From an uncultured virus (IMG/VR IMGVR_UViG_3300008108_004630) (Duplodnaviria; Heunggongvirae; Uroviricota; Caudoviricetes): a DNA stretch of 60,853 bases. The notes below the pieces were generated by a model, which searched no databases, was not told where the DNA came from, and worked only from the letters and a program-made list of their open reading frames with translations. Position numbers and translations under genes: made by a program. The first letter of the stretch is position 1. Every line of letters starts with the position of its first letter. The stretch lies in IMG/VR virus record IMGVR_UViG_3300008108_004630, one strand, 5' to 3'. This document shows positions 56,056 to 60,853 of this stretch, in pieces.

Positions 56056-56412
56056 ATGAAGACATTTAAGAATATGGCAGCCCAGGGTGATTTCGTTATC
56101 ATCCGGGTAGACTCTATCCCTGAGGGGCTAGAGGAGATTAATGTAACCAACAAGATTGTGGTGGCTCATTCTGAGACTGGCCACGACCATGTTATGGTTC
56201 TTGAGAGGCCCGGCACTGTTCAGGCTTTTAAGGATAGCAAAACTAGTGAGGTAGATCTCTATGAGATGTTTCTGCTTGTGTCGGAGCCTACTCCGATCGA
56301 GCATATGCGTGCTTGGCGCACTCACGAGACTCTCCTAGTCCCACCGGGTCGTTATAAGATCCGTAGGCAGCGTGAGTATATTCCGCAGGGCTTTAGAAAG
56401 GCAGCAGACTAA
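56056..56412 (+). CDS. His-rich partner protein of DUF6745
   Basis: QGD, HSETGHDH, H...H, PPGRY.IRRQREY; TAATG-coupled to next gene. Confidence 0.75.
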   Translation: MKTFKNMAAQGDFVIIRVDSIPEGLEEINVTNKIVVAHSETGHDHVMVLERPGTVQAFKDSKTSEVDLYEMFLLVSEPTPIEHMRAWRTHETLLVPPGRYKIRRQREYIPQGFRKAAD

Positions 56413-57287
56413 TGGCTAGGCTAAACGAACTTACCCAAGAACAGATTGACGCTATGCCGCTTTATGTAGATAAGTGGGTTAAGGTCGGCCTGTCTACGGA
56501 GCGCGTTGACTTTGAGCGTGCTAAAGGTCTAGTCGCTAAGGCCTATGAGAAGGCCGGTCTGGCTCTTCCTAAGGTCTACCATTTCGCTAGGGGTCCCAGA
56601 GAGGGATTTGCGATTTACAAGTCGCACCCCACCGGCACCGGAACTTACAACGACTATACTAGTGGTTGTATGTTTGGCTCTCAGGAATCCTCTTGGCTTT
56701 CTTACTGGGACTACTACAAGTCAGAGACTTGTGTTGAGGTTGATGATCTCTCTTATATGAAGGAAATCGCTCTTCATTGCGGTTGGGTATACACTGGAGA
56801 TACAGATGTAATTATTCACGACCGTCCTGAGATCATCAAGAGGGATGAGAACCACGCGCTTCATTGCGAAGATGGTCCGGCTATTAGGTATCTCGACGGT
56901 TACGAATTCTACTCTTGGCACGGGCAGATTGTCCCGAAGGAGTGGATCGTTGACCGAGCTAGCCTGACGCCTGAAATTGCTCTAGGCCAGCGTAATACGG
57001 AACTACGCCGTGCGGCCTGTGAGATTCTTGGTTGGGTTAATGTAATCGAGCGGCTTAACTGTAGAGTGATTGATCAGGATGCTGATGAGATGATTGGCAC
57101 CTTACTCGAGGTTCATATTCCAAATATTGGAAATGATTCCATGTTGGAAAAGTTCCTTAAGGTTCGCTGTGGTACTGGCGCGGAATTTGCTATACCTGTC
57201 CCTCCCGAGATGCGAACTGCTCTAGAGGCTAATGCCTGGACCTACGGTCTGAAGCCTACGGAATACGTTCCAGAGGTTAGGACCTAA
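56412..57287 (+). CDS. DUF6745-like protein
   Basis: LTQEQ...W...LSTERVD N-terminus; LHCEDGPAIRYLDG..YSWHG, N.ELRR, C-terminal VPP...A..A.AWTYGL. Confidence 0.8.
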   Translation: MARLNELTQEQIDAMPLYVDKWVKVGLSTERVDFERAKGLVAKAYEKAGLALPKVYHFARGPREGFAIYKSHPTGTGTYNDYTSGCMFGSQESSWLSYWDYYKSETCVEVDDLSYMKEIALHCGWVYTGDTDVIIHDRPEIIKRDENHALHCEDGPAIRYLDGYEFYSWHGQIVPKEWIVDRASLTPEIALGQRNTELRRAACEILGWVNVIERLNCRVIDQDADEMIGTLLEVHIPNIGNDSMLEKFLKVRCGTGAEFAIPVPPEMRTALEANAWTYGLKPTEYVPEVRT

Positions 57288-57290
57288 AGA

Positions 57291-57319
57291 GAACAGCGGC
57301 GAAAGCCGCTGTTTTTTTT
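57291..57319 (+). terminator. Intrinsic terminator
   Basis: AACAGCGGC-GAAA-GCCGCTGTT TTTTTT. Confidence 0.85.
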
Positions 57320-57322
57320 ACT

Positions 57323-57487
57323 ATGAAACCAGTTCGAATTTTATCACTCAGTCACCCAATGTGGGGCCAAGCCTCTCGTTCTGTATATGACCACGCATAT
57401 AGTCTGGTATATATCCCGACTGTGCGTCAAGTACAAGACCAGGTTTGTGATCTTGTGATTATCCATGAAACCTATCCCTCATATTAG
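57323..57487 (+). CDS. Divergent QVxx-family mini-protein
   Basis: MKPVR...RQVQDQV. Confidence 0.55.
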   Translation: MKPVRILSLSHPMWGQASRSVYDHAYSLVYIPTVRQVQDQVCDLVIIHETYPSY

Positions 57488-57626
57488 ATACGATAAACAA
57501 ACCTACGGTCAGATCCATGACCAAGCAGCTAGTTCTTTGCGTATGGTTATTCAGGGACTTTATGTCCCTACTTGGACTCAGGTTAGGGATCAAGTCCATC
57601 TCTTAGTGAGAACCACCGAACCATGA
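57465..57626 (+). CDS. Divergent QVxx-family mini-protein
   Basis: MKPI...TQVRDQVHLLVRTTEP. Confidence 0.55.
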   Translation: MKPIPHIRYDKQTYGQIHDQAASSLRMVIQGLYVPTWTQVRDQVHLLVRTTEP

Positions 57627-57669
57627 AATTTTAAAAATTGTTAAATATCATAGCAAATGATAAGGATAA

Positions 57670-57915
57670 TTGATCGTGAATAAATATTTAATTTCCATTC
57701 CTGTTAATCAAAAGATTTTTGACCTTATTCATACAGGCACACAACAAGATCAAGATGACAATTACGAATATTTTCGTGTGAAACTGCATGTTGGTGTAGT
57801 TGCATTCCGCCTTGTCTCAGACGACCAATATCGAGAATTTCTTACAAAAATTGTTAATGACGAATCTTCTTCAAAAGAAGAACGTAAGTCAGCAGCTCGC
57901 CTTTTGAAATTTTAA
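57670..57915 (+). CDS. Hypothetical protein interrupting the array
   Basis: ORF; start uncertain. Confidence 0.5.
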   Translation: MIVNKYLISIPVNQKIFDLIHTGTQQDQDDNYEYFRVKLHVGVVAFRLVSDDQYREFLTKIVNDESSSKEERKSAARLLKF

Positions 57916-58293: not shown

Positions 58294-59155
58294 TGAGGGA
58301 AATTAAACCATGAAATCTGTTAAGCTTCAAGTCTTACGTCTCATAAGGAGGAACCCATGAACCCACAACTTTTTCAAATCGACTCTCAGATTTGGCATCA
58401 ATTTTGGCGTCAAGTCTCCCGTCAAATCTATTATCAAGTCGACCTTCAAATTAGGGATCAAGTCTATCATCAAGTTTACGATCAAGTCGTATCTCTTGTA
58501 CAGAATACCGAACCATGAAATCAGTCAAAGCTCAAATCCGAGACCCGATTATAGGTCAAGTCGGAGATCAAGTCTCCGATCAAGTCCGCTCCCAAGTCTG
58601 GAACCAAGTTTGGGAGCCTGTCTTCGAGCAAGTCGCTCACGTTTTTATCTCCATAAGGATGAACACCCTATGAACCCTATCCTCAAACACGTCCGGTGCG
58701 CAATTAGAGATCAAGTCCTGTGCCAAACCCGGCTCCAAGTCACTTATCGAATCTGGAGTCAAATCGAACGTCAAGTCTGGAATCAAGTCTACCTTCAAGT
58801 TAGCGATCAAGTCTTTATGCATATGAGGATAAAACCATGAAATCCGTTAAATACCAAATCTGGAACCAAATCTGGAGTCAATTCAACCCTCAAATATCTA
58901 CTCGAGTCGCTTGTCAAATCGACCAGCAACTCCATTATGAAGTCTGGAAGCAAGTCTATGAAGTCTACTATCCAATTAAGAGACTTACATGAGATCAGTT
59001 AAACGTCAAGTCTTCCATCAAGCCCTTAATCAAGCCTCCGATCAAATCAAGCATCAAATTTCCAGTCAAGTCCGTGATCAAGTTGCCGATCAAGTCTTTA
59101 TTCAAGTCGACGATCAAGTCTGGCTTCGAGTCTCGCTTCAAGTCAGGAACTTTCC

Positions 59156-59350
59156 ATGAAATCAGTTAAACCGCAAGTTTGGAGCCGAGTCGCCGGTCAA
59201 GTCTACCTTCAAGTCTTTAGTCAAGTATCTAGTCAAGTATATGATCAAGTCGCCAATCAAGTCTTTAATCAAGTGACTCATCAAGCCACTCGTCAAGTCT
59301 TCGATCAAGTTCGAGATCAAGTCAGGCACCAAGTCAGGAGACTTTCATGA
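59156..59350 (+). CDS. QVxx-repeat mini-protein
   Basis: MKSVKPQVWSRVAGQV...QVRRLS. Confidence 0.75.
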   Translation: MKSVKPQVWSRVAGQVYLQVFSQVSSQVYDQVANQVFNQVTHQATRQVFDQVRDQVRHQVRRLS

Positions 59351-59796
59351 GATCCGTTAAACTTCAAGTCGATCGTCAAGTCGATCGTCAAGTCTGGGAT
59401 CAAGTCTTAGATCAAGTCGATCGTCAAGTCTGGAATCAAGTCTACCTTCAAGTCTGGGATCAAGTCGATCGTCAAGTCTACGATCAAGTCAGGAGACTTC
59501 CATGAAATCCGTTAAGCCTCAAGTCTTCGATCAAATCATCCATCAAGTCGACGATCAAGTATTCCATCAAGTCGACTATCAAATCTGGAATCACGTCTGG
59601 TTTCAAGTCTTTGATCAAGTCAGGAGACTTTCATGAGATCCGTTAAGCCTCAATTCAGTCAATTCTTCTATCAAGTTATCAATCAAGTCCTTCGTCAAGT
59701 CTCGGCTGAAGTCTGGGATCAAGTCGTCAATCAAGTCGACGATCAAGTCTTTAATCAAATCTTGGCCCAAGACTTTCCAAAAGTCAGGAACTTTCA

Positions 59797-59979
59797 ATGA
59801 AACCCGTTAAATATCAAGTCGCCGATCAAATCTCCAATCAAGTCTTCGAGCAAGTCTGGGATCAAGTCTTAGATCAAGTCGACGATCAAGTATTCCATCA
59901 AGTCTGGCATCAAGTCAGGGATCAAGTCTCCATTCAAGTCTGGCGTCAAGTCCGTGATCAAGTCAGGAGACTTTCATGA
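59797..59979 (+). CDS. QVxx-repeat mini-protein
   Basis: MKPVKYQVADQ...QVRRLS. Confidence 0.75.
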   Translation: MKPVKYQVADQISNQVFEQVWDQVLDQVDDQVFHQVWHQVRDQVSIQVWRQVRDQVRRLS

Positions 59980-60120
59980 GATCTGTTAAGCCTCAAGTCT
60001 TCCATCAAGTCTTCGATCAAATCAATCGTCAAGTCTCCAGTCAAGTCGAGAATCAAGTCTTAAGTCAAGTCGTCAATCAAGTTTGGACTCAAGTCTACCT
60101 TCAAGTCTCAGGAACTTTCA

Positions 60121-60303
60121 ATGAAATCTGTTAAGACTCAAGTCTTCCATCAAGTCGAGAATCAAGTCTTCTATCAAGTCTGGGATCAAGTCTTAAGTCA
60201 AGTCGATCGTCAAGTCTTAGATCAAGTCCACCGTCAAGTATTCCATCAAGTCGATCGTCAAGTCTTAAATCAAGTCAGGGATCAAGTCAGGAGAACTCTA
60301 TGA
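60121..60303 (+). CDS. QVxx-repeat mini-protein
   Basis: MKSVKTQVFHQ...QVRRTL. Confidence 0.75.
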   Translation: MKSVKTQVFHQVENQVFYQVWDQVLSQVDRQVLDQVHRQVFHQVDRQVLNQVRDQVRRTL

Positions 60304-60482
60304 AATCCGTTAAACTTCAAGTCTGGGATCAAGTCATCAATCAAGTCAGAACTCAAGTCAGCTTTCAAGTCATCAATCAAGTCTTCTATCAAGTCAGAAC
60401 TCAAGTCGCCGATCAAATCTCCAATCAAGTCTTAGATCAAATCTTCTATCAAGTCAATCGTCAAGTCAGGAACTTTCAATGA
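60300..60482 (+). CDS. QVxx-repeat mini-protein
   Basis: MKSVKLQVWDQ...QVRNFQ. Confidence 0.75.
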   Translation: MKSVKLQVWDQVINQVRTQVSFQVINQVFYQVRTQVADQISNQVLDQIFYQVNRQVRNFQ

Positions 60483-60853
60483 AACCCGTTAAATATCAAG
60501 TCGCCGATCAAATCTCCAATCAAGTCTTAGATCAAATCTTCTATCAAGTCAATCGTCAAGTCAATCGTCAAGTCTTAGATCAAGTCTTCTATCAAGCCAA
60601 TCATCAAGTCAATCATCAAATCTTAGATCACGTTAGGAGCTTTCAATGAAATCTGTTAAGCCTCAAATATCTAATCAAGCCCGTGATCAAGTCTGGGATC
60701 AAGTCAGAGCTCAAGTCGACGATCAAGTATTCCATCAAGTCTTAGGTCAAGTTTGGAGTCAAGTCACCATTCAAGTCTGGCGTCAAGTCTGGGAGGAAGT
60801 CAGGAACTTTCAATGAAATCTGTTAAGCCTCAAATCTATAGTCAATTCTTAAA

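What the first reader, a model, noticed from the sequence alone, without database searches (positions are those of the whole stretch)
56056..60853. DUF6745 gene pair followed by a library of at least 19 QVxx-repeat mini-genes
Seen: 17 consecutive ORFs from 58310 (mostly 44-64 aa, one 16 aa, last cut by the window) plus two divergent ones at 57323 and 57465. Most start M(K/R)(S/P)VK, consist of Q-V-x-x tetrads with fixed CAAGTC and two variable codons, and end ..QVRR/RN.., whose AGGA serves as RBS for the next ATGA-overlapped gene. No internal stops despite heavy variation, implying selection on protein. From memory, DUF6745 proteins often carry an internal Q-(V/L)-x-x repeat tract between N- and C-domains; the copy here lacks it. 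Inference: the repeat domain has been split off and amplified as a diversified in-trans repertoire (specificity modules, decoys or anti-defence binders).
Basis: partly seen in the sequence, partly recalled or inferred. Interest (0 to 1): 0.88.

Follow-up and report, generated by a model that had tools for sequence, protein, structure and literature searches.

The report
Split-off repeat mini-genes beside phage DUF6745
A freshwater phage carries at least 19 tiny genes made only of a four-residue repeat that in related phages sits inside the neighbouring DUF6745 protein; they probably work as interchangeable snap-on parts of it.

Summary
Window 58310-60853 holds 17 consecutive small ORFs (16-64 aa, the last cut by the window end). 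Two decayed copies lie at 57323 and 57465. All follow a conserved pair: a 118-aa His-rich protein and a 291-aa DUF6745 protein.

The minis are almost pure x-x-Q-V tetrads and are translationally coupled (ATGA at 15 of 16 junctions). Only the annotated frame is free of stops: 0 observed against 12.1 expected.

Many DUF6745 proteins carry an internal tetrad tract (QVxx, QLxx, NLxx, AATx, SSLx and others) between their N- and C-domains. Among longer proteins that match the mini-gene profile, 106 of the best 120 are DUF6745 proteins.

The two forms exclude each other. Mini-genes lie beside tract-less DUF6745 in 33 of 42 clusters. They lie beside tract- or insert-bearing forms in 1 of 28, and that one is a mis-binned tract-less form.

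A co-fold with controls places a mini-protein on DUF6745 around the tract's insertion site (ipSAE 0.75, best control 0.01).

The closest known thing is mycobacteriophage Tweety gp54, a tetrapeptide-repeat counter-defence protein on an unrelated scaffold. No paper in the searched library names DUF6745.

The biochemical function is still unknown. Translation and binding have not been shown experimentally.

The parts
56056..56412 (+). p118: 118-aa conserved partner of DUF6745. Invariant residues are Q10 G11, H38 S39 E40 T41 H43 H45, H83 R85, T89 H90, Q105 R106 E107 and D118.
   Evidence: ORF. No Pfam or NCBIfam hit. Matches phrog_27831 at E 1.1e-9. A homolog lies next to DUF6745 in 117 of 123 loci. 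Invariant residues come from alignment A4.
56412..57287 (+). Tract-less DUF6745 protein, 291 aa. Its start overlaps the p118 stop (TAATG).
   Evidence: PF20530 at E 1.6e-31. AF2 model has pLDDT 90.1. No PDB fold match. Alignment A1 places the relatives' tract between window residues about 72 and 90.
57295..57313 (+). Intrinsic-terminator-like hairpin plus T-run directly after DUF6745.
   Evidence: sequence.
57323..57487 (+). Decayed mini-gene copy, 54 aa: MKPV..., with only ...RQVQDQV... left of the repeat.
57465..57626 (+). Decayed mini-gene copy, 53 aa: MKPI..., ...TQVRDQV...
58310..58360 (+). Truncated mini-gene, 16 aa (MKSVKLQV...). First gene of the array.
58357..58518 (+). Mini-gene, 53 aa, degenerate (starts MNP; QI and QF variants).
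58515..58673 (+). Mini-gene, 52 aa.
58670..58840 (+). Mini-gene, 56 aa, degenerate (starts MNP).
58837..58992 (+). Mini-gene, 51 aa.
58989..59159 (+). Mini-gene, 56 aa.
59156..59350 (+). Mini-gene, 64 aa.
59347..59505 (+). Mini-gene, 52 aa.
59502..59636 (+). Mini-gene, 44 aa.
59633..59800 (+). Mini-gene, 55 aa.
59797..59979 (+). Mini-gene, 60 aa. This one was used as the partner chain in the co-fold.
59976..60134 (+). Mini-gene, 52 aa. A one-base difference before the junction lets it run 14 nt into the next gene and end at TAA.
60121..60303 (+). Mini-gene, 60 aa.
60300..60482 (+). Mini-gene, 60 aa.
60479..60649 (+). Mini-gene, 56 aa.
60646..60816 (+). Mini-gene, 56 aa.
60813..60853 (+). Start of a further mini-gene (MKSVKPQIYSQF...), cut by the window end. 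The array may go on.

Best explanation
The array is a family of real, translationally coupled genes. Each encodes a free-standing copy of the tetrad-repeat tract (x-x-Q-V, 11-16 tetrads) that in related phages and prophages is an internal, length-variable and sequence-variable helical insert of the DUF6745 protein.

Proposed history: in the ancestor of a large clade of aquatic phages the QVxx tract was lost from DUF6745 and re-encoded as separate mini-genes. These were then duplicated (1-21 per locus; at least 19 here) and diversified at the two variable positions.

Proposed mechanism: each mini-protein folds as a helix or helical hairpin and docks in trans onto the N-terminal helices of tract-less DUF6745, around the site where fused relatives carry the tract. 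One scaffold (DUF6745 with its constant partner p118) would then be loaded with many alternative variable surfaces at once.

Proposed role: by analogy with Tweety gp54, the tract is the tunable specificity element of an early-expressed phage-host conflict protein, most likely counter-defence. The array would replace mutational tuning of one tract with a standing repertoire.

Shown here: gene structure, selection on the reading frame, homology of the minis to the tract, mutually exclusive distribution, and conservation across many phages.

Predicted only: the docking.

Inferred only: the counter-defence role.
For: Coding:
- The annotated frame has 0 stops in 692 interior codons. The other five frames have 12-171, and shuffles expect 12.1 +/- 2.8.
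- The MKSVK start, AGGA Shine-Dalgarno and ATGA coupling are conserved in the window and in other phage contigs.
- The Q-V dipeptide is kept while its codons differ between lineages. Most use CAAGTC. L065, L066, L069, L071, L082, L092 and L132 use CAGGTC; L086 uses CAAGTA.

Homology to the tract:
- 106 of the best 120 proteins of 120 aa or more that hit the mini profile carry PF20530.
- 7 of the 14 others were inspected and have the same N-domain plus tract build.

Distribution, from loci found through DUF6745 and not through the minis:
- 46 of 62 complete tract-less loci have at least one mini. The nearest mini is a median 102 bp away.
- 0 of 20 tract-bearing loci have any.
- By 90% identity clusters the split is 33 of 42 against 1 of 28, Fisher p 1.2e-10, not corrected for phylogeny.
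- Both large contigs that carry arrays but showed no DUF6745 within 10 kb do carry one elsewhere on the contig.

Docking:
- Three-chain co-fold ipSAE values are 0.75, 0.73 and 0.84; the best of 3 controls is 0.01.
- Partner pLDDT is at least 82 and the runs agree in at least 92% of contacts.
- The tool's mark was reached by 116 of 157 solved complexes and 2 of 215 mismatched pairs.
- Contacts listed in the best run involve DUF6745 only (residues 1-27, 44-50, 62-111, 127-173). They flank the insertion point seen in alignment A1.

Tract structure:
- AF2 models the tract of a fused relative as a long helical hairpin, residues 78-195.
- Non-repetitive long inserts in L106, L114 and L119 keep a hydrophobic residue every 4th position.

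Functional analogy and context:
- Tweety gp54 has 40-48 AAxx tetrads between unique N- and C-regions, and its defence-escape mutants change the repeat number (passages read in PMC9262239 section 14 and PMC2884959 section 16).
- A mycobacterial prophage protein, prophiGD102-1 gp38, is a DUF6745 protein with about 50 QLxx tetrads.
- The genomic context is the early, repressor-proximal or replication region of phages and prophages.
Against: - No experiment shows that any mini-protein is made. Metatranscriptome contigs do cover pieces of the array (3 runs, depth 2-3), but DNA carry-over in RNA libraries is not excluded.
- The tract part of the AF2 model has only pLDDT 52-68.
- The co-fold used my own alignments of a low-complexity repeat and three chains, which is outside the tool's calibration.
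- The split form is mainly one 35-41-row clade. At most about 5 state changes appear on the tree. The association could therefore be one historical event and not a functional rule.
- 16 of 62 complete tract-less loci show no mini within the DNA held.
- Tweety gp54 is not homologous to DUF6745 (hhalign probability about 0.1; no Pfam hit), so the counter-defence role is borrowed from another scaffold.
- In the published gp54 model (PMC9262239, section 14) repeat number sets the juxtaposition of the N- and C-regions. A free-standing tract cannot do that.
- DUF6745 and p118 have no PDB fold match and no PADLOC hit. Nothing points to a biochemical activity.
Confidence: 0.55

Rival explanations
1. 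The same module is a defence or exclusion device and not a counter-defence one. DUF6745 plus p118 would be a phage or prophage-encoded sensor-effector against competing phages. The variable tracts or minis would be the sensing surfaces.
For: - In bacterial genomes the pair sits next to CI/LexA-like S24 repressors. One case is a minimal island flanked by chromosomal genes: L106 carries S24 repressor, DUF6745, p118, a 123-aa ORF and a Metallophos gene. This position is typical for prophage-encoded defence genes (general knowledge).
- p118 has an invariant His/Glu-rich motif that could bind a metal and catalyse a reaction.
Against: - No PADLOC model matches DUF6745, p118 or the minis.
- The module is also carried by large phages with no integrase seen in the DNA held.
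- The only experimentally studied tetrapeptide-repeat phage protein acts as counter-defence.
Confidence: 0.2
2. The mini-proteins act on their own, for example as self-associating helical decoys or sponges for a host factor. DUF6745 would be only their evolutionary source and neighbour.
For: - Arrays can lie 6-12 kb from DUF6745 in large contigs. They are interrupted by unrelated genes here (81-aa and 124-aa ORFs).
- Up to 21 copies stand against one DUF6745 per locus, which is an odd stoichiometry for obligate partners.
- 44-64 aa amphipathic repeats could oligomerise (inference).
Against: - The co-fold score collapses to 0.00 when DUF6745 is replaced by an unrelated protein.
- In 38 of 46 loci with minis the nearest mini lies within 500 bp of DUF6745, and minis are often interleaved with the pair.
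- No array was found in a near-complete contig without DUF6745: 1 of 1 contigs at 90% completeness or more has it.
Confidence: 0.13
3. The 12-bp repeat works at the DNA or RNA level, as a protein-binding iteron array, origin, recombination hot spot or structured RNA. The ORFs would be by-products. This is analogous to ori-lambda lying inside the linker-coding part of gene O (recalled).
For: - The amino-acid motif of the internal tract differs completely between lineages (QVxx, QLxx, NLxx, AATx, SSLx, xQPA, SVxx, SAAx), while the 12-bp period and the position in the gene are constant.
- Within each locus the core hexamer is nearly invariant at third codon positions too.
Against: - Only one of six frames is free of stops.
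- The start codon, SD and ATGA coupling are conserved across divergent phages.
- Q-V is kept through synonymous codon changes between lineages.
- No Rfam family matches.
- Across the different motifs the tetrad keeps one pattern: small/polar residue, then V/L/A/T, then a variable residue, then D/A/S/G.
Confidence: 0.07
4. The array is non-functional debris: remnants of a tract that slipped out of DUF6745 and is drifting.
For: - The 5' copies are visibly decaying: 57323, 57465, the 16-aa 58310, and the MNP-starting 58357 and 58670.
- Assembly graphs suggest unstable copy content (joints in DNA run X2; weak evidence).
Against: - Intact frames and conserved signals are kept in 33 of 42 tract-less clusters across a deep clade, with DUF6745 identity down to about 42%.
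- 0 stops are observed against 12 expected.
Confidence: 0.05

Closest known systems
Mycobacteriophage Tweety gp54 and its relatives Che8 gp57 and PMC gp51: tetrapeptide-repeat counter-defence proteins. Sources: PMC2884959, PMC9262239; the primary 2017 paper is recalled as reference 79 of the review and was not read.
   Same: - 12-bp / 4-residue tandem repeat with two fixed and two variable positions.
- The variable residues are drawn from a small set rich in G, W, S, Y and Q.
- Repeat number differs between close relatives.
- The gene lies in the early, non-structural part of a phage genome and is dispensable for growth.
- An SAAx-type tract also occurs inside a DUF6745 protein (L134).
   Different: - The flanking domains are unrelated to DUF6745 (no Pfam hit; hhalign probability about 0.1).
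- In gp54 the tract is always internal. Here it is absent from the scaffold and encoded as 19 or more separate genes.
- The published gp54 model has repeat number setting the juxtaposition of the N- and C-regions, which free-standing tracts cannot do.
- No p118-like partner is described for gp54.
Tract-bearing DUF6745 proteins, such as Mycobacterium prophage prophiGD102-1 gp38, MW202476.1 UOF77368.1, and prophage genes of Alphaproteobacteria.
   Same: - Same N-domain and C-domain family (PF20530) and the same p118 partner next door.
- The QVxx tract is homologous to the minis.
   Different: - The tract is fused, 11-66 tetrads long, with low diversity (usually 3-6 tetrad types per tract).
- The window has no tract in DUF6745 and much more diverse free copies: 16 residue types at the first variable position and 17 at the second.
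Bordetella phage BMP-1 bbp36 VR2. Cited in PMC2884959 section 16; passage read.
   Same: A tandem in-gene repeat array whose copy number varies between phage isolates, in a non-essential gene of unknown role.
   Different: Its unit is 24 bp. No homology was tested here. It has no free-standing gene copies.
Pentapeptide-repeat proteins (recalled, for contrast).
   Same: A short-period repeat with fixed inward-facing residues and variable outward-facing ones. They are often interaction or mimicry modules.
   Different: The period is 5, not 4, and the fold is a beta-helix, whereas AF2 predicts helices here. No Pfam pentapeptide hit.

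Membership tests
Pfam PF20530 (DUF6745) | Profile match above the curated gathering score. | tested here: met
   Window 56412-57287: E 1.6e-31, 109.7 bits against a cut-off of 27, residues 87-291.
DUF6745 / p118 gene pair | A p118 homolog (AHSETGHxH ... RRQRE) directly adjacent to DUF6745. | tested here: met
   Window 56056-56412. 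A p118 homolog is found in 117 of 123 DUF6745 loci, and also in Ma-LMM01 (gp175/gp174) and MW202476.1.
Tract-bearing DUF6745 architecture (N-domain, tetrad tract, C-domain) | An internal tract of 24 aa or more with 4-residue period, inside the same polypeptide. | tested here: not met
   The window protein is 291 aa with no period-4 segment. Alignment A1 shows a short non-repetitive loop where P0117 and P0119 have the tract.
MKSVK-(xxQV)n mini-protein family (defined here) | A 40-75 aa ORF that begins M(K/R)(S/P/A/T)V, is 9 or more in-phase Q-V tetrads, and is ATGA-coupled in tandem. | tested here: met
   15 of 17 array genes in the window. Relatives occur in 14 of 16 motif-found loci and in 46 of 62 tract-less DUF6745 loci. 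Alignment A3. No Pfam, PHROG, NCBIfam or PADLOC family matches convincingly.
Tweety gp54 family | Homology of the flanking N- and C-regions. | tested here: not met
   hhalign of gp54 against the DUF6745 alignment A2: probability about 0.1, 6 aligned columns. gp54 has no PF20530 hit.
Tweety gp54 family | 12-bp / tetrapeptide tandem repeat with two fixed and two variable residues. | tested here: met
   155 tetrads in the window. Q is coded CAA in 154 of 155. V or I follows in 144 of 155 (GTN 121, ATH 23). Positions 3 and 4 are variable.
Tweety gp54 family | Counter-defence activity that is tunable by the repeats. | not testable with these tools
   Needs infection assays.
Diversity-generating retroelement target | A reverse transcriptase and a template repeat nearby. 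| tested here: not met
   No RT domain in the 57 window ORFs of 100 aa or more scanned (of 64 such ORFs ending before 55700; four of the seven left out overlap tRNA genes, one is a minus-strand ORF at 51557-51928, and two had been scanned), nor in the eight ORFs scanned. Only this 61-kb window was examined, not the whole genome.

The most novel reading that the evidence does not exclude
This is a phage-encoded combinatorial recognition system. One conserved scaffold (DUF6745 plus the His-rich p118) is armed in trans by a standing, fast-turning-over library of 10-20 or more tetrad-repeat helical adaptors, each presenting a different W/F/R/D/Y-rich surface. A single phage would then carry many pre-tuned specificities against variable host defence (or rival-phage) proteins. 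That is functionally the phage's answer to an immune-receptor repertoire, built by gene fission and tandem amplification and not by mutagenesis.
Probability: 0.3. Interest if true: 0.9.

Novelty: new variant of a known kind. Interest (0 to 1): 0.8.

Why it matters
Tetrapeptide-repeat tracts in phage proteins have been a curiosity since 2007. They have one functional anchor: Tweety gp54, whose counter-defence is tuned by repeat number.

This finding makes three points.

First, such tracts are widespread in a second, unrelated and unstudied scaffold. The mini profile hits 3565 cluster representatives at E 0.001 or better, and the DUF6745 query finds 759 relatives.

Second, a large clade of aquatic phages has taken the tract out of the protein and turned it into arrays of translationally coupled mini-genes.

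Third, these mini-proteins are predicted to dock back onto the scaffold.

If this is right, the tract is a self-contained binding module and not only a spacer. That would revise the current model for gp54-type proteins. It would also offer a natural, modular system of one scaffold with many plug-in helices for studying how phages diversify specificity.

It further gives DUF6745 and the p118 family their first testable hypothesis. It also flags hundreds of 40-70 aa genes that annotation pipelines usually skip.

Tried and rejected
- Whole-region megablast against GenBank phages found nothing. tblastn with one mini-protein also found nothing; the low-complexity filter is the likely cause.
- The window's own assembly is not held. 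The nearest record, G001 (39 kb), lacks the region.
- The search for related loci with the single DUF6745 protein found no relative. The alignment query was needed.
- Fold searches gave nothing usable.
  - For the tract-bearing model, Foldseek E was 0.83 or worse, and VIA Z was 7.5 or less and only on the generic helical hairpin.
  - For the tract-less model, Foldseek E was 0.23 or worse and VIA Z was 4.2 or less.
  - This does not show that the fold is new.
- The p118 profile against PDB sequences gave E 0.48 or worse. The ESM Atlas returned only unnamed viral clusters for p118 and holds no model of it.
- PADLOC has no model for DUF6745, p118, the minis or Tweety gp54. Rfam has no family in 55000-60853.
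- Promoter-like sites are not enriched: 13 found against 9.7 +/- 3.7 expected.
- Stop-codon reassignment was considered because of a tRNA with anticodon CTA. It was rejected as unsupported. TAG ends 9 of 57 long ORFs, and reading through any one of the three stops lengthens ORFs about equally.
- Reading the array as one long protein was rejected. At each junction one frame ends in TGA, another in TAA (GTTAA), and the third starts with ATG.
- Parts of the array without RNA-library cover, and the joints seen in DNA run X2, are not used as evidence. Contigs, short flanks and repeats make them unreliable.
- p118 showed no confident contacts with the mini-protein in the co-fold's best run. Only the mini-protein was scored, so this says nothing about whether p118 binds.
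- The 81-aa and 124-aa ORFs between the pair and the array have no homolog in any other locus fetched. They are not counted as parts.

Full report
WHAT IS THERE

The last 4.8 kb of the window holds, on the + strand:
- A 118-aa ORF (56056-56412, here called p118).
- A 291-aa ORF whose start overlaps the p118 stop (56412-57287). It matches Pfam DUF6745 at E 1.6e-31.
- A terminator-like hairpin at 57295-57313.
- Two decayed small ORFs at 57323 and 57465.
- Two unrelated small genes of 81 and 124 aa.
- From 58310 to the window end, 17 consecutive small ORFs.

Fifteen of the 17 begin M(K/R)(S/P)VK. Fifteen of 16 junctions are ATGA overlaps. AGGA lies upstream of the start in 14 of 16 genes. Each junction shifts the frame by -1: one frame ends in TGA, a second in TAA, and the third starts with ATG.

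The body of each gene is a run of 11-16 tetrads x-x-Q-V with the DNA core CAAGTC. The pattern CAAGTC-N6-CAAGTC-N6-CAAGTC occurs 92 times, all at 58411-60801, against 0 expected.

The rest of the window is the accessory and early region of a large phage. It has 30 tRNA genes and many auxiliary genes such as a PHO4 transporter, AhpC, SAM decarboxylase, MT-A70, RNase H, dCMP deaminase, NT5C and Metallophos. No structural genes and no reverse transcriptase were found among the ORFs scanned.

IS IT CODING?

- Over 692 interior codons the annotated frame has no stop. The other five frames have 12-171.
- Shuffling the variable nucleotides within their columns gives 12.1 +/- 2.8 in-frame stops, never fewer than 4 in 2000 trials.
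- Scanning IMG/VR for the junction motif returned 16 loci. Fourteen of them hold the same kind of genes, up to 16 per locus. They share the MKSVK start, the QV tetrads and the ATGA coupling, but have different C-terminal tails such as RENIK, WDEK, HEIS, NEIR and SERLK.
- Q-V is encoded CAAGTC in most lineages but CAGGTC, CAAGTA or CAAGTG in others. The amino acids are kept through synonymous change.
- No Pfam, NCBIfam or PADLOC family matches the minis. PHROGs gives only weak partial hits, E 6e-4 or worse.

THE LINK WITH DUF6745

Named examples of tract-bearing DUF6745 proteins:
- Among close relatives of the window protein almost all are 281-296 aa. P0117 and P0119 carry AQVWDQVW...AQVY between the N-terminal region and the DUF6745 domain and differ in repeat number.
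- A circular 77-kb phage genome (MW202476.1) has about 30 SSL[GEWR] tetrads at the same place.
- Mycobacterium prophage prophiGD102-1 gp38 has about 50 QLxx tetrads.

I then sampled loci through DUF6745 itself and not through the minis: 80 viral and 43 genomic loci.
- Of the 92 complete DUF6745 ORFs, 20 carry a tetrad tract: QVxx in 7, QLxx in 4, AATx in 4, NLxx in 2, and xQPA, SVxx and SAAx in 1 each.
- Ten have a long insert without a clean repeat.
- Sixty-two are tract-less.
- A p118 homolog is present in 117 of the 123 loci.

In the other direction, the mini-protein profile was searched against proteins of 120 aa or more. It found 594 hits at E 1e-5 or better among the 8000 candidates scored. 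Of the best 120, 106 carry PF20530. Seven of the other 14 were inspected and have the same N-domain plus tract build with a diverged or truncated C-part. Against 1.84 billion cluster representatives the profile hits 3565 proteins at E 0.001 or better.

MUTUALLY EXCLUSIVE DISTRIBUTION

| DUF6745 form | Loci with at least one QV mini-gene |
|---|---|
| Complete, tract-less | 46 of 62 |
| Tract-bearing | 0 of 20 |
| Long-insert | 1 of 10 |

- The single long-insert case is L049. It is really a tract-less form lengthened by an in-frame fusion with the front of p118.
- At 90% identity clusters the split is 33 of 42 against 1 of 28. Fisher p is 1.2e-10, not corrected for relatedness.
- The nearest mini lies a median 102 bp from DUF6745. 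In several loci minis are interleaved with p118 and DUF6745.
- Five records with arrays but no DUF6745 within the DNA fetched around them (up to 10 kb each side) were searched whole. The two large ones, a complete 158.5-kb contig with terminal repeats and a 117.8-kb contig, each carry one DUF6745. The three without are fragments of 13-17% completeness.

A quick maximum-likelihood tree of the C-domain (70 cluster representatives) gave these results:
- Nearly all split forms fall in one group of 41 rows. It contains a well-supported all-tract-less clade of 35 rows.
- A QVxx tract-bearing protein (L138) sits at the base of that group.
- One mini-bearing tract-less locus (L132) groups elsewhere, beside the QVxx tract-bearers L100, L093 and L113, with moderate support.
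- The tree needs at least 5 changes between split and fused states.

The fission therefore happened mainly once, perhaps twice, in the QVxx lineage. The association statistics rest on few independent events.

STRUCTURE AND DOCKING

- AlphaFold2 models the N- and C-domains of both a fused form (L093, 398 aa, mean pLDDT 82.8) and the window protein (pLDDT 90.1) with confidence. It draws the tract as a long helical hairpin, residues 78-195, at only pLDDT 52-68.
- Neither model has a convincing PDB match.
- Long non-repetitive inserts in L106, L114 and L119 still put a hydrophobic residue at every fourth position. This suggests the tract is a homogenised version of a structured helical element and not a disordered linker.

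A three-chain co-fold was run with DUF6745, p118 and one mini-protein, each with its alignment, and with the mini as the scored partner:
- ipSAE was 0.75, 0.73 and 0.84, against 0.01 for the best of three controls.
- Partner pLDDT was at least 82 and the runs agreed in at least 92% of contacts.
- The tool's mark was reached by 116 of 157 solved complexes and 2 of 215 mismatched pairs in its calibration. The tool notes that this holds only roughly for my own alignments and three chains.
- All confident contacts in the best run are with DUF6745: residues 1-27, 44-50, 62-111 and 127-173. The best pairs are residues 15-27 and 97-102 with mini residues 32-44. These surround the point where relatives carry the tract.
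- The model supports binding; it does not show it.

EXPRESSION AND ECOLOGY

- The stretch is held at 94% or more of its sampled words in 14 DNA runs from 8 studies, labelled freshwater or 'fungus' metagenomes. One sample may be the source of this DNA.
- In three metatranscriptome runs from three studies, contigs cover p118 plus DUF6745 completely in two runs (depth 13-21). Short pieces of the array are covered in all three (depth 2-3). DNA in RNA libraries cannot be excluded, so this is only a weak hint of transcription.

COMPARISON WITH WHAT IS KNOWN

- No paper in the searched library mentions DUF6745 or PF20530.
- Searches for 'tetrapeptide repeat' with phage terms lead to mycobacteriophage Tweety gp54. 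I read passages of PMC2884959 (sections 16, 19 and figure legends) and PMC9262239 (section 14).
- From those passages: gp54 has unique N- and C-regions flanking 40-48 AAxx tetrads. Relatives have 26 and 15 repeats. Mutants that escape the Phrann gp29/gp30 defence gain or lose repeats. The authors propose that the juxtaposition of the two end domains is what gets tuned.
- The primary paper (reference 79 of the review) was not read.
- gp54 is not a DUF6745 protein.
- The tetrad tract is therefore a portable element found on at least two unrelated phage scaffolds. A further unrelated 248-aa protein with an xSAA tract turned up in L127.
- I found no description of free-standing tract genes or of arrays of them in these searches.

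MECHANISM, WITH LEVELS OF SUPPORT

Shown:
- A conserved, selected family of mini-genes.
- Their homology to the DUF6745 tract.
- Their exclusive association with tract-less DUF6745.
- Tandem amplification and diversification. In the window the first variable position uses 16 residue types led by F, W, R, S, D, L and Y. The second uses 17 led by D, R, N and H.

Predicted: docking in trans at the former insertion site.

Inferred: the DUF6745-p118 module is a conflict (most likely counter-defence) device whose specificity lies in the tract, and the array provides many specificities at once. Because a free tract cannot act as a spacer, the split forms argue that the tract is itself a binding element.

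Main rivals: a defence or exclusion role for the same module, minis acting independently of DUF6745, a DNA-level role of the 12-bp repeat, and non-functional debris.

VERDICT

- The function is untested.
- Novelty: a new variant of a known kind. Tetrapeptide-repeat phage proteins are known; the split, amplified, in-trans form and the DUF6745 scaffold are not described.
- Interest is high.

Noticed in passing
window 23954-39542, especially 38070-38143: 30 tRNA genes in four clusters. One has anticodon CTA, which ARAGORN labels 'Pyl'; it is a potential amber suppressor. TAG still ends 9 of 57 long ORFs, and reading through TAG lengthens ORFs no more than reading through TGA or TAA. There is no sign of recoding in this window.
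   Followed up: partly
window 3903-4252 (- strand): ARAGORN calls a tmRNA-like gene (marked with an asterisk) with tag peptide ANDNSIEEIRLAA. It partly overlaps the 236-aa ORF 3221-3931.
   Followed up: no
window 12712-16991, 33666-34667, 42177-42854, 30144-30915: An unusual set of host-like genes for a phage: CHASE2-adenylate/guanylate cyclase, a FecR-like protein, CsgG, a PHO4 phosphate transporter, a Bax1-I family membrane protein, and two adjacent AdoMet decarboxylase ORFs.
   Followed up: no
window 54871-55626; L106 6171-6929: A calcineurin-like metallophosphoesterase lies just upstream of the p118/DUF6745 pair in the window. One also lies in the minimal S24-repressor/DUF6745/p118 island of Hwanghaeella grinnelliae. 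The window copy partly matches the PADLOC candidate PDC-S10. It may be a third conserved partner.
   Followed up: partly
L049 (IMG/VR contig), DUF6745 ORF of 361 aa: An in-frame fusion of the first ~77 residues of p118 to the start of DUF6745. The near-identical L051 has two separate genes. This is a natural fusion, or a deletion, between the two partners.
   Followed up: no
L108 8525-9019 (Phyllobacterium prophage): An HNH_3 plus AP2 homing-endonuclease-like gene is inserted between DUF6745 and p118.
   Followed up: no
L127 3259-4005 and 9657-9881: A different 248-aa protein carries a 73-aa xSAA tetrad tract. A 74-aa ORF is made of GYG/GDG repeats. Both lie in the same prophage-like region as a QLxx DUF6745. 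Tetrad tracts are therefore not confined to one scaffold.
   Followed up: no
window 58310-60853 in DNA run X2: The assembly of an independent sample breaks the array into many contigs. It shows joints that skip or repeat parts, for example 57319 to 58513 at about a third of the depth. This may reflect coexisting array variants or repeat-induced misassembly. The flanks are short, so it is weak evidence.
   Followed up: partly
window 58310-58992 versus 59156-60816: There is a gradient of decay along the array. The 5' copies are truncated or irregular (16 aa, MNP starts, QI/QF/QL variants, weak SD). The 3' copies are regular. The window ends in the regular part, so the youngest copies may lie beyond it.
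   Followed up: no
DUF6745 alignment A1/A2: Invariant residues include H151, W169-H170-G171, C203-E204, C253-G254-T255-G256 and a C-terminal R-T that ends every protein. The His/Cys set could be a metal site or an active site. No fold match helps to decide.
   Followed up: no
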